A stretch of 58,152 nt of DNA from a virus. Lineage: Duplodnaviria; Caudoviricetes. The stretch's first letter is position 1. The number at the start of each line of letters is the position of its first letter. Below, piece by piece: positions 8,095 to 8,279 of this stretch. Location: positions 1 through 58,152 of IMG/VR virus record IMGVR_UViG_3300042988_001268; one strand, 5' to 3'. The notes under the pieces were generated by a model. That model was not told where the DNA came from, searched no databases, and saw only the letters and a list, made by a program, of their open reading frames with translations. Made by a program: the position numbers and the translations under genes.

Positions 8095-8199
8095 CGAGGC
8101 ATGGTAAGCAAGGTCATTGGCAGATGCGGGTTCGAATCCCGTCAGGCTTAGCCGCACTGCTTGGCGGTCGCCTGTAGTTCAACGGTAGAACGGTCCTCG
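8095..8199 (+). ncRNA. Circularly permuted tRNA mimic 1 (T arm - closed acceptor stem - D arm; YrlA-like)
   Basis: T arm GCGGG-TTCGAAT-CCCGT 8126-8142; CAGGC/GCCTG; TA; D arm GTTC-AACGGTA-GAAC; closing CGAGG/CCTCG. Confidence 0.75.
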
Positions 8200-8279
8200 G
8201 GGGAGAACCGGGTTCGAATCCCGGCCGGCAGTGAAGCCTAAGCAGAGGTTGAGCCGGTAGCATAATGGTAATGCGCCCC
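8200..8279 (+). ncRNA. Circularly permuted tRNA mimic 2 (YrlA-like)
   Basis: T arm CCGGG-TTCGAAT-CCCGG 8208-8224; CCGGC/GCCGG; TA; D arm GCAT-AATGGTA-ATGC; closing GGGG/CCCC. Confidence 0.75.

What the first reader, a model, noticed from the sequence alone, without database searches (positions are those of the whole stretch)
8095..8279. Tandem circularly permuted tRNA mimics with complementary kissing loops and no Ro60 gene
Seen: two modules in the order T arm, loop-closed acceptor stem, TA, D arm, with perfect and covarying stems (CAGGC/GCCTG vs CCGGC/GCCGG; GTTC/GAAC vs GCAT/ATGC). The loop capping acceptor 1 contains CTGCTT (8157-8162), exactly complementary to the loop capping acceptor 2, AAGCAG (8240-8245). 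Known: YrlA Y RNAs have this permuted topology but normally lie next to a Ro60/Rsr gene, and I see none here. Inference: a double-elbow RNA with no anticodon and no chargeable end, possibly a decoy for tRNA-targeting defences or a processing signal.
Basis: partly seen in the sequence, partly recalled or inferred. Interest (0 to 1): 0.88.

Follow-up and report, generated by a model that had tools for sequence, protein, structure and literature searches.

The report
Tandem tRNA-shaped RNA in a phage
A temperate phage carries, between two replication genes, a small non-coding RNA built as two back-to-front tRNA look-alikes, a variant of the known bacterial YrlA design that here comes without its usual protein partner genes.

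Summary
The two modules are real. T arm, capped acceptor stem, UA and D arm occur twice (8126-8191, 8208-8274, + strand). A covariance model built only from other genomes' modules scores them 48.6 and 47.6 bits (E about 1e-11). Rfam's YrlA model matches only the tRNA-like part (29.9 and 28.0 bits, cut-off 69).

The window is a complete 58-kb phage record with no TROVE/Ro60, RtcB or Band-7 gene.

Orphan status is not rare. Of 13 phage records with such modules, 9 lack TROVE. Tandem pairs with the same 12-16 nt linker sit upstream of Band-7/RtcB repair operons in Bacteroidota. This scan has flagged Ro60-less phage modules on other DNA before (e1-6031999, e1-5785624).

The CTGCTT/AAGCAG complementarity exists, but shuffled caps reach it 6.9% of the time. 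No other tandem pair shows it. It also fits an alternative nested fold of similar energy. No homologue was found to test covariation.

Ten related phages keep the flanking genes but lack the RNA, so it is an accessory insertion.

Verdict: a new variant of a known kind. Function is untested.

The parts
6560..8092 (+). Upstream gene. A 510-aa protein (P0001) of a phage replication-module family. Its stop codon TAG is 8090-8092.
   Evidence: No Pfam or PHROG hit. 120 homologues, 10 of them carrying DNA pol III beta-clamp domains, some named Novosphingobium. Syntenic homologues lie in 10 viral loci.
8092..8106 (+). 5' strand of the predicted terminal (outer) stem: GGGCGAG, GC, GGTA. It contains GGCGAGG (8093-8099), one mismatch from the Rsr motif GNCGAAN0-1G.
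   Evidence: Constrained folds pair 8092-8098 with 8293-8299, 8099-8100 with 8290-8291, and 8103-8106 with 8286-8289. The flank duplex is not significant: 318 of 2000 shuffles do as well. The strict motif is absent.
8126..8142 (+). T arm 1: a 5-bp stem and the loop TTCGAAT.
8143..8174 (+). Acceptor hairpin 1. CAGGC pairs with GCCTG, then an internal loop, then GCCGC (8151-8155) pairs with GCGGT (8164-8168). The apical loop ACTGCTTG holds CTGCTT at 8157-8162.
8175..8191 (+). U8-A9-like TA plus D arm 1 (GTTC, AACGGTA, GAAC). A14, G18, G19 and A21 are present. A15 (8182) can pair with U48 (8125).
8192..8207 (+). 16-nt linker GGTCCTCGGGGGAGAA. It may form a weak CTC/GAG hairpin, or its GGGG may pair with CCCC at 8276-8279.
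   Evidence: The linker length matches the 12-16 nt of the close-set tandem modules in metagenome and genome loci.
8208..8224 (+). T arm 2.
8225..8257 (+). Acceptor hairpin 2. CCGGC pairs with GCCGG, then AGCCT (8235-8239) pairs with AGGTT (8246-8250). The apical loop is AAGCAG, 8240-8245.
8258..8274 (+). TA plus D arm 2 (GCAT, AATGGTA, ATGC).
8275..8299 (+). 3' closing strands. GCC 8275-8277 can pair with GGC 8119-8121. TACC, GC and CTCGCCC form the 3' strand of the outer stem.
8339..8596 (+). Downstream 85-aa ORF. It lies in the same variable slot and has no family hit.
   Evidence: No homologue in the 10 related loci.
9069..9767 (+). Conserved ATP-dependent DNA-ligase-domain gene that bounds the variable slot on the right.
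   Evidence: PF01068 at 1e-10. phrog_114. Best PDB matches are DNA ligases. Homologues at 38-62% identity in 10 of 10 related loci, all of which lack the RNA.

Best explanation
Positions 8092-8299 (+ strand) encode a non-coding RNA made of two YrlA-type, circularly permuted tRNA-like modules in tandem, probably enclosed by one terminal stem. Each module keeps the nucleotides that build the tRNA elbow. These are the T loop TTCGAAT, the G53-C61 pair, U8, A14, G18-G19 and A21. Each module has a hairpin-capped acceptor arm and no anticodon arm, so it can be neither charged nor used in decoding.

The element is an accessory insertion. It sits in a variable slot between two conserved replication-module genes of a temperate phage whose host is possibly a sphingomonad.

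The most likely mode of action has three steps.
1. The RNA is made as part of the rightward polycistronic transcript.
2. It persists as a compact, nuclease-resistant, tRNA-shaped RNA.
3. It binds host proteins that recognise tRNA shape.

The likeliest partners are the RNA repair and quality-control machinery that this RNA design accompanies in bacteria: Rsr with PNPase, or Band-7 with RtcB. The phage brings only the RNA.

Shown: the fold elements, class membership by covariance model, absence of partner genes, accessory status, and the bacterial gene linkage of the tandem form. Inferred: expression, processing, stability, the protein partner and the effect on infection.
For: - Both modules are highly significant hits to an independent model of permuted modules. 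They are also local hits to the tRNA-like part of Rfam YrlA.
- Five stem pairs differ between the modules and all still pair.
- The record is a complete phage (CheckV 100%) with no TROVE, RtcB or Band-7.
- The same single module lies inside the tRNA array of Streptomyces phage Stella. It shares a 26-base T-arm/acceptor string and is unannotated. There it can hardly be an mRNA signal.
- Of 13 phage records with such modules, 9 lack TROVE, including 3 of 5 complete ones.
- Tandem pairs with 12-16 nt linkers were found in 15 bacterial genome loci. In 5 of 5 examined they lie 330-450 nt upstream, on the same strand, of a Band-7 gene. RtcB follows in 3 and RlaP in 1.
- Published work shows the YrlA tRNA-like domain folds as an L shape, is modified by TruB and DusA, and is linked to Rsr/PNPase and RtcB operons (PMC4201824, section 4; bioRxiv 10.1101/312249, passages).
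- Ten related phage loci keep the order P0001 homologue, ligase, p9791 homologue. They have no module nearby or anywhere in their records. The element is therefore a lineage-specific add-on, as host-interaction cargo usually is (inference).
Against: - There is no expression evidence.
- No homologue of this particular double element was found, so nothing here tests covariation of the outer stem, the linker or the cap loops.
- The Rsr-binding motif is not met. The nearest string is GGCGAGG, and no CGAA or CGAT lies upstream of T1. In my small sample, 5 of 5 Rsr-linked loci have CGA[AT] upstream (4 phage loci and 1 bacterial locus).
- The outer stem is not better than shuffled flanks.
- The whole-region fold z-score is only -1.5.
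- The host is unknown, so it cannot be checked whether it has Rsr, RtcB or Band-7.
- Module 2 has A15 opposite A48, so its Levitt pair is not formed.
- The D stems and the T2 stem differ from the near-invariant YrlA stems.
Confidence: 0.45

Rival explanations
1. mRNA punctuation or stability element. The tRNA-like fold is a cis-acting signal in the polycistronic transcript. It could block 3' exonucleases after the upstream gene, or be cut by RNase P, RNase Z or RNase E to separate cistrons. The excised RNA would have no function of its own.
For: - The element starts at the last base of the upstream stop codon (8092) and lies on the same strand as both neighbours.
- No promoter-like or terminator-like site lies in 7600-9100.
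- Two type II hammerhead ribozymes lie in other same-strand gaps of this arm, at 1139-1212 and 5474-5551. Each starts 0-4 nt after the stop of a listed ORF. This transcript may therefore be cut at RNA-encoded sites.
- M. smegmatis YrlA is cleaved by RNase P (PMC4201824).
- tRNA-like 3'-end signals such as mascRNA are an established precedent (cited in 10.1101/312249).
Against: - Both acceptor stems have only 5 contiguous pairs before an internal loop. Published data say YrlAs without a 7-bp acceptor stem are not cut by RNase P.
- Ten related phages manage the same gene order without it.
- The Stella module sits among tRNAs, not between mRNAs.
- Two full elbows with every tertiary nucleotide kept is more than a nuclease block needs (inference).
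Confidence: 0.2
2. Decoy or sponge. The double elbow soaks up a host defence nuclease or another tRNA-directed toxin, or titrates a tRNA-modifying or processing enzyme. This protects phage or host tRNAs.
For: - It is accessory, lineage-specific cargo in a variable slot.
- It offers two binding-competent elbows per molecule.
- Phage tRNA-related counter-defence is an established theme (recalled, not read here).
Against: - The best-known tRNA-directed defence nucleases read the anticodon loop, which is missing here (recalled knowledge).
- No defence or anti-defence gene was recognised beside it.
- In bacteria the same design sits in repair operons rather than in phage-like contexts.
Confidence: 0.12
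3. Nested fold (structural rival). The caps pair with each other instead of folding back.
- Helix X is 8143-8153 with 8247-8257.
- Helix Y is 8157-8165 plus 8170-8174, paired with 8225-8229 plus 8236-8245.

This gives an ordinary-order cloverleaf (acceptor Y, D1, a short hairpin in place of the anticodon arm, T2). The cloverleaf is inserted in the acceptor arm of a single YrlA-like module made of T1, helix X, D2 and the outer stem. The CTGCTT/AAGCAG match is then plain helix, or the RNA switches between the two folds.
For: - With only the T and D arms enforced, the thermodynamic ensemble puts about 93% on helices X and Y, with an MFE of -86.5 kcal/mol.
- The explicit Fold II is -81.8 against Fold I at -84.9.
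- Cap-to-cap duplex energy is better than 1989 of 2000 shuffles.
- Rfam's tRNA model scores 8168-8232 at 28.1 bits, just under its cut-off of 29.
Against: - The in-module stems are perfect (5+5 bp each). Helices X and Y carry mismatches and a bulge.
- The one acceptor difference between the modules (A-U against C-G) is compensatory only for in-module pairing.
- When U8 and A9 are kept unpaired, as in tRNA, the in-module fold is the MFE.
- All other tandem pairs have caps too short for such a fold.
- A 6-bp kissing bonus of about -6 kcal/mol is not counted by the folding program.
Confidence: 0.08
4. Inert relic. The element is a recently captured or rearranged piece of tRNA or YrlA-like DNA, or a pair of decayed tRNA genes, with no present function.
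For: - It is absent from all 10 relatives.
- The T arm plus acceptor string of module 1 is common to ordinary phage tRNAs. Most of the 16 loci that hold the 20-mer are normal tRNAs.
- There are no expression data.
Against: - All six arm stems are intact, and both caps fold into further hairpins.
- Every elbow nucleotide is kept in both copies, and the differences between copies are compensatory.
- The order T, acceptor, D cannot arise by simple decay of a tRNA gene. ARAGORN finds no tRNA and there is no anticodon arm.
Confidence: 0.1

Closest known systems
YrlA (Y RNA-like A; Rfam RF02553; Chen et al. 2014, PMC4201824; structure in Wang et al. 2018, bioRxiv 10.1101/312249)
   Same: It has the circularly permuted tRNA-like domain in the order T arm, loop-closed acceptor stem, UA, D arm. 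The elbow nucleotides are tRNA-like, there is no free CCA end, and a predicted stem joins the 5' and 3' flanks. Both modules are local hits to model positions 23-88.
   Different: - Two modules share one frame, rather than one module per RNA.
- Scores of 29.9 and 28.0 bits fall well below the cut-off of 69.
- There is no rsr gene in the genome.
- There is no GNCGAAN0-1G motif.
- The D stems and T2 stem depart from the near-invariant YrlA stems.
- The acceptor caps are long (22-23 nt).
- Known phage cases all lie beside Ro60. Caulobacter phage CcrColossus has three separate YrlAs next to it (Table S2 of PMC4201824).
Tandem tRNA-like RNA upstream of Band-7/RtcB repair operons in Bacteroidota. 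Found here in L148-L162 and L298-L302. Probably what Burroughs and Aravind called Band-7-associated tRNA or YrlA beside Band-7. I know that work only through the passage in 10.1101/312249; the original was not seen.
   Same: The architecture is the same: T, capped acceptor, UA, D, a 12-16 nt linker, then T, capped acceptor, UA, D. They give sub-threshold YrlA hits of 33-42 bits. Most lack Ro60: TROVE was found in 4 of 12 genomes and was adjacent in one.
   Different: - Those sit in front of Band-7 plus RtcB or RlaP (5 of 5 loci). The phage has none of these genes.
- Their caps are 2-9 nt, with one exception of 24 nt in L161.
- Their module 1 is closed by its own 4-bp stem.
- Their D2 is followed by a 5-bp stem with a 7-nt loop, like an anticodon arm. 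That hairpin is absent here.
Orphan permuted module in the tRNA array of Streptomyces phage Stella (OP751154, L001 2494-2575). It is unannotated in the record.
   Same: It shares the identical 26-base string across the variable region, T arm and acceptor 3' strand. It has the same GCCTG-TA junction and an 18-nt cap. The phage has no Ro60.
   Different: It is a single module closed by its own 6-bp stem. It is embedded among 21 tRNA genes rather than between protein genes, and the host is an actinobacterium.
tRNA-like processing signals (mascRNA/MALAT1 type) and tRNA punctuation
   Same: A tRNA-shaped fold lies directly after a coding region on the same transcript. Rfam mascRNA-menRNA gives a weak hit of 21.3 bits at 8157-8231.
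   Different: Those have an open acceptor stem that RNase P and RNase Z cut. Here both acceptor stems are closed and only 5 bp long.
Permuted tRNA genes of algae, and two-piece (permuted) tmRNA
   Same: At gene level the 3' half (T arm, acceptor 3' strand) precedes the 5' half (acceptor 5' strand, D arm).
   Different: Those are matured to chargeable molecules that have anticodon or tag-coding parts. Here there is no anticodon arm, no CCA, no tag frame and no pseudoknots. The tmRNA_permuted hit is 10 bits against a cut-off of 47.

Membership tests
YrlA (RF02553) | tRNA-like domain in the permuted order T arm, loop-closed acceptor stem, UA, D arm, with elbow nucleotides | tested here: met
   Sequence reading. 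Local YrlA alignments to model positions 26-82 and 23-88. Own model R1 gives 48.6 and 47.6 bits.
YrlA (RF02553) | Score at or above Rfam's gathering cut-off of 69 bits | tested here: not met
   29.9 and 28.0 bits. No YrlA hit in the gathering-threshold scan of the window.
YrlA (RF02553) | Encoded within about 4 kb of, and on the same strand as, an rsr (Ro60/TROVE) gene | tested here: not met
   PF05731 finds nothing in the complete 58,152-nt record. The control genomes gave hits.
YrlA (RF02553) | Terminal stem formed by the 5' and 3' ends that carries the GNCGAAN0-1G Rsr-binding motif | tested here: not met
   No strict motif in 8000-8330. The only CGAA strings are the two T loops, and the nearest string is GGCGAGG at 8093-8099. 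A terminal stem is predicted but is no better than shuffled flanks.
YrlA (RF02553) | Near-invariant D-stem and T-stem sequences (consensus GCUC/GAGC and GCGGG/CCCGC in the Rfam alignment) | tested here: not met
   T1 fits except for a closing G-U pair. T2 (CCGGG/CCCGG), D1 (GUUC/GAAC) and D2 (GCAU/AUGC) differ.
YrlA (RF02553) | Bound by Rsr; modified by TruB and DusA | not testable with these tools
   Biochemical properties reported in PMC4201824.
Band-7/RtcB-associated tandem tRNA-like RNA (Bacteroidota) | Two permuted modules joined by a 12-16 nt linker | tested here: met
   The linker 8192-8207 is 16 nt. The 12 close-set tandem pairs have 12-16 nt.
Band-7/RtcB-associated tandem tRNA-like RNA (Bacteroidota) | Lies upstream of, and on the same strand as, a Band-7 (SPFH) gene followed by RtcB or RlaP | tested here: not met
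   PF01145 and PF01139 find nothing in the record. The neighbours are a clamp-linked family protein, two small ORFs and a DNA ligase.
Band-7/RtcB-associated tandem tRNA-like RNA (Bacteroidota) | Anticodon-arm-like hairpin (5-bp stem, 7-nt loop) directly after D2 | tested here: not met
   It is present in, for example, L128, L133, L148, L159 and L161. After D2 here comes GCCCCATCCCCTACC with no such hairpin.
Ordinary or decayed tRNA gene | Order acceptor, D, anticodon arm, T, acceptor; detected by tRNA finders | tested here: not met
   ARAGORN finds 0 genes. RF00005 gives only a hybrid D1+T2 hit of 28.1 bits, below its cut-off of 29, with the anticodon arm replaced by 11 nt.
Permuted tmRNA | tRNA-like domain plus tag reading frame and pseudoknots | tested here: not met
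   tmRNA_permuted scores 10.1 bits against a cut-off of 47, covering a T loop only. ARAGORN finds no tmRNA.
Loop-loop (kissing) complex | Complementary apical loops whose pairing is kept by covariation in relatives | tested here: inconclusive
   Six Watson-Crick pairs lie between predicted apical loops. Chance is 6.9% unconditioned and 0.12% conditioned on the loops. No homologue is available to test covariation. Of 15 other tandem pairs, 0 show a run of 5 or more.

The most novel reading that the evidence does not exclude
The two long acceptor caps were elaborated so that one RNA can adopt two folds. In one, a rigid bivalent form has the tips of two tRNA-like arms kissing (CTGCTT with AAGCAG), which fixes two elbows at a set distance. 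In the other, a nested form places an ordinary-order, anticodon-less mini-tRNA inside a YrlA-like frame. The phage would use this as a switchable two-headed tRNA mimic that bridges or traps two copies of a host tRNA-shape-reading protein. An example would be repair or decay machinery responding to the 2',3'-cyclic-phosphate ends made by the phage's own hammerhead ribozymes. This would be a Ro60-independent, phage-borne branch of the Y-RNA idea.
Probability: 0.1. Interest if true: 0.75.

Novelty: new variant of a known kind. Interest (0 to 1): 0.45.

Why it matters
YrlA-type tRNA mimics have been studied almost only as partners of Ro60, because searches were restricted to Ro60-encoding genomes. 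This locus is one of a set that suggests otherwise. The set also includes the Stella module, the other Ro60-less phage records and the Band-7/RtcB-linked tandem forms. Together they show the permuted tRNA module as a free-standing building block. It travels without Ro60, is often duplicated in tandem, and is picked up by phages as accessory cargo.

A temperate phage that carries only the RNA is a simple system for asking which host protein reads the tRNA-like domain. That question is still open for YrlA itself. The cap-to-cap complementarity offers a specific, cheap mutate-and-rescue test of higher-order structure. If none of this holds, the locus is still a correct annotation of an RNA gene that standard pipelines miss.

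Tried and rejected
- **Expression:** no RNA holder listed. Only two DNA runs of one freshwater sample and study hold the stretch, one of them a possible source of the record.
- **Single-protein searches for relatives:** searches in IMG/VR with the 510-aa protein and with the ligase found nothing. An alignment-based search found 10 loci, none with a module.
- **Exact-pattern scans for the tandem design:** these gave 3 viral, 20 metagenome and 15 genome loci, none a close relative of this element. 14 of the 38 were not permuted modules (acceptor pairing 2-3 of 5).
- **20-mer scan (T arm plus acceptor):** returned mostly ordinary tRNAs.
- **Ligase link rejected.** The nearby ligase-domain gene looked like a possible RNA-repair partner. 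However, its best solved relatives are DNA ligases, and it is conserved in 10 of 10 relatives that lack the RNA.
- **Upstream protein as a hidden Band-7 rejected:** no Band_7 signal even at E 10. Its family is linked to the beta clamp.
- **Host Rsr hijack through a Y-RNA stem is weakened** by the missing motif.
- **Unconstrained MFE:** it pairs T1 with T2, which I regard as an artefact of two near-identical, nearly palindromic T arms.
- **attP reading for 8095-8279 rejected.** A separate tRNA 3' fragment beside the integrase fits that role better.
- **Papers not held:** Sim et al. 2020, and my recalled DOI for Burroughs and Aravind 2016.
- **Print check.** Three searches ('YrlA'+phage+tRNA-like; 'Y RNA'/bacteriophage/'tRNA mimic'/Rsr; 'YrlA' from 2018) listed no paper on Ro60-less phage YrlA-like RNAs or on two modules within one frame. 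I read only listings and the passages cited. Table S1 of PMC4201824 was not opened and its supplementary figures could not be read. Either may show multi-module forms.
- **Model R1:** it used 39 of my 48 candidate modules. I left out eight with long caps or Leu/Ser-type D arms and one near-duplicate. All candidates had been pre-selected for paired stems, so the 99.5% pairing is circular.
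Full report
**What is there**

The window is an entire IMG/VR virus record of 58,152 nt, 64% G+C, rated 100% complete by CheckV. It is a tailed temperate phage. It has a lambda-type portal, capsid protease, decoration and major capsid genes, a gpA-type large terminase, a lysozyme, two DNA methylases and a tyrosine integrase. Its large terminase is at most 26% identical to that of any phage in the GenBank phage collection searched.

The finding lies in a 246-nt gap. 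On the left is a 510-aa gene ending at 8092. On the right is an 85-aa ORF starting at 8339. Both are on the + strand.

**The observation**

- Module 1: T arm 8126-8142, acceptor 8143-8147 with 8170-8174, TA, D arm 8177-8191.
- Module 2: T arm 8208-8224, acceptor 8225-8229 with 8253-8257, TA, D arm 8260-8274.

Both keep U8, A14, G18, G19, A21, the T loop TTCGAAT and the G53-C61 pair. Module 1 can form an A15-U48 Levitt pair. Module 2 has A opposite A at that position.

ARAGORN finds no tRNA or tmRNA in the window. At gathering thresholds, Rfam reports only two type II hammerheads elsewhere. A permissive scan of 7950-8450 gives three relevant hits:
- two local YrlA hits, 29.9 bits (model 26-82) and 28.0 bits (model 23-88), against a cut-off of 69;
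- a hybrid tRNA hit (D1 plus T2) of 28.1 bits, just under its cut-off of 29.

For a test independent of Rfam, I collected permuted modules from other DNA. I filtered them for paired T, acceptor and D stems and removed those overlapping ARAGORN tRNAs. I aligned 39 of the 48 candidates and built model R1. Over the whole window, both strands, R1 finds exactly the two modules at 48.6 and 47.6 bits (E about 1e-11, rough). A tRNA fragment near the integrase follows at 17 bits. The two modules are real.

**Overall fold**

The T and D arms were enforced and U8/A9 were kept single-stranded. The minimum-energy structure then forms both acceptor hairpins on its own. Each is extended by a second 5-bp helix (8151-8155 with 8164-8168, and 8235-8239 with 8246-8250). 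The apical loops are ACTGCTTG and AAGCAG.

A terminal stem encloses everything: 8092-8098 with 8293-8299, 8099-8100 with 8290-8291, and 8103-8106 with 8286-8289. The energy is -84.9 kcal/mol. The terminal stem is not better than shuffled flanks (318 of 2000 shuffles). The region as a whole folds only 1.5 sd better than shuffles. The unconstrained MFE pairs the two near-identical T arms with each other, which I take to be an artefact.

**The loops**

CTGCTT (8157-8162) and AAGCAG (8240-8245) are exactly complementary, and both sit in the predicted apical loops.

| Test | Result |
|---|---|
| Shuffled caps reaching a 6-base run | 6.9% |
| Random loops of those sizes matching | 0.12% |
| Shuffles matching the whole-cap duplex energy | 11 of 2000 |

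The second figure was conditioned on the loops after the fact. The third led me to an alternative, fully nested fold. In it, 8143-8153 pairs with 8247-8257. Also, 8157-8165 plus 8170-8174 pairs with 8225-8229 plus 8236-8245. This yields an ordinary-order cloverleaf (D1, short hairpin, T2) inserted in the acceptor arm of one YrlA-like module made of T1 and D2.

Its energy is -81.8 kcal/mol. When U8/A9 are allowed to pair, a variant at -86.5 dominates the ensemble. The in-module fold gains roughly -6 kcal/mol more if the loops kiss, which the program cannot count.

Three points favour the in-module fold:
- its stems are perfect;
- the single acceptor difference between the modules is compensatory only in cis;
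- every other tandem pair I found has caps too short for the nested fold.

None of 15 other tandem pairs (13 distinct) has a cap-to-cap run longer than 4. No homologue of this element was found, so the kissing claim stays untested.

**Relatives and context**

Three lines of comparison bear on what the element is.

1. *Streptomyces phage Stella.* It has one such module in an unannotated 89-nt gap between tRNA-Pro and tRNA-Gly of its tRNA array. The module shares a 26-base string with module 1 and is closed by its own 6-bp stem.

2. *Other phage records.*
Of these, 16 had a fully paired local acceptor, against about one expected by chance. Four of the 16 proved to be adjacent tRNAs.
   - Of the 12 remaining records plus Stella, TROVE is present in 4 of 13. 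Among complete IMG/VR records it is present in 2 of 5.
   - In the four Ro60-positive records, and in one bacterial locus, a CGA[AT] string lies upstream of the module. It is mostly absent from the Ro60-less ones, and absent here.
   - None of 14 phage records, this one included, has RtcB. Two have Band-7.

3. *The tandem design.* A pattern for the tandem design found 3 viral, 20 metagenome and 15 genome loci.
   - 22 of these 38 have a perfect local acceptor.
   - 14 of the 15 genome loci carry names of Bacteroidota (my reading of the names).
   - Their linkers are 12-16 nt, against 16 here. Their YrlA scores are 33-42 bits.
   - TROVE is present in 4 of 12 genomes and adjacent in one.
   - In 5 of 5 loci examined, the RNA lies 330-450 nt upstream of a Band-7 gene on the same strand. 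RtcB follows in 3 and RlaP in 1.
   - This matches a passage in Wang et al. 2018. It reports Band-7-associated tRNA-like RNAs and YrlAs beside Band-7 and RtcB, citing Burroughs and Aravind. I could not read that original.

**The element is accessory**

The upstream protein has 120 homologues. Some are named Novosphingobium, and 10 are fused to beta-clamp domains. An alignment of 28 of them found 10 viral loci. All 10 keep the order homologue, ligase, p9791 homologue. None has a homologue of the two small ORFs, a module within 2.5 kb or a module anywhere in the record (0 of 10; 0 of 6 complete).

The RNA and its two small neighbours therefore occupy a variable slot. The ligase is not tied to the RNA. 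Its closest solved relatives are DNA ligases.

**What it most likely does**

What is shown:
- It is a tRNA-shaped RNA design with two elbows, no anticodon and no chargeable end.
- It belongs to the YrlA structural kind.
- It is carried without Ro60, RtcB or Band-7.
- It was gained by one phage lineage.

Published work shows the YrlA domain folds as an L, is modified by TruB and DusA, and is cut by RNase P only when the acceptor stem has 7 bp. Here it has 5 bp.

My best inference, at 0.45, is a stable stand-alone RNA that engages host proteins reading tRNA shape. The likeliest partners are the repair and quality-control set with which this design is linked in bacteria.

The main rival, at 0.2, is a cis-acting punctuation or stability element. 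Three observations favour it:
- the element starts at the upstream stop codon;
- the scan finds no promoter-like or terminator-like site nearby;
- two hammerheads sit in other same-strand gaps.

A decoy for tRNA-directed nucleases (0.12) fits poorly for anticodon nucleases. The nested fold (0.08) and an inert relic (0.1) remain possible.

**Comparison with the known, and novelty**

It works like a YrlA tRNA-like domain but fails four of five testable membership features of YrlA proper. It shares the tandem architecture of the Band-7/RtcB-linked RNAs but not their gene context or their trailing anticodon-like hairpin.

Chen et al. searched only TROVE-encoding genomes. Their phage table lists 22 phages, all with Ro60, including three separate YrlAs in CcrColossus. 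My three literature searches listed nothing on Ro60-less phage modules or on two modules in one frame. A 2026 preprint adds three unrelated bacterial tRNA-mimic families (abstract only).

Earlier notes of this scan report Ro60-less permuted modules in two other phages. My own counts agree with them.

I rate it a new variant of a known kind, with interest 0.45. The annotation is solid. The broader pattern, free-standing and often tandem permuted tRNA modules as phage cargo, is worth a specialist's attention. The eye-catching kissing loops are unproven.

Noticed in passing
window 1139-1212 and 5474-5551 (+): Two type II hammerhead ribozymes score above Rfam's cut-off (40.3 and 42.4 bits). They lie on the same strand as the early genes. 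Each starts 0-4 nt after the stop of a mechanically listed ORF (912-1139 and 5276-5470). They may cut the rightward transcript between cistrons.
   Followed up: partly
window about 56788-56827 (-), just after the integrase gene 55506-56723: A tRNA 3' fragment with a T arm (exact GGTTCGAATCC), an acceptor 3' strand and ACCA, but no 5' half. It is likely the attP core that restores a host tRNA gene on integration, and it could identify the host.
   Followed up: partly
L001 2494-2575 (Streptomyces phage Stella OP751154, about 16049-16130): An unannotated permuted tRNA-like module in the gap between tRNA-Pro and tRNA-Gly of a 21-tRNA array. The phage has no TROVE gene.
   Followed up: partly
L298-L302 (five Bacteroidota genomes) and L128-L162: Tandem permuted tRNA-like modules lie directly upstream of Band-7 (SPFH) genes, followed by RtcB or RlaP. 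No Rfam family claims them above its cut-off. The second module is followed by an anticodon-arm-like hairpin.
   Followed up: partly
window 6560-8092 (P0001) and loci L303-L312: An uncharacterised phage protein family with 120 homologues, 10 of them fused to DNA pol III beta-clamp domains. The gene order family member, variable slot, DNA ligase, p9791 homologue is conserved in 10 viral loci.
   Followed up: partly
L009, L048, L095, L118, L155 compared with L016, L032, L075, L080, L092, L099, L121: A CGA[AT] string upstream of the module occurs in 5 of 5 Ro60-linked loci and in few Ro60-less ones. It may be a simple marker for Ro60-dependent versus Ro60-independent modules. The sample is small.
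   Followed up: partly
L095, L169, L161: Several YrlA-like RNAs carry a hairpin with the loop CUUGUAA next to the tRNA-like module, resembling a Thr anticodon loop. ARAGORN miscalls L169 as tRNA-Thr because of it.
   Followed up: no
window 13695-19022 and 19019-23410 (-): Two very large adjacent ORFs of 1775 and 1463 aa in the tail region. The first has three DUF7359 stretches and an fn3 domain. The second has no family hit.
   Followed up: no
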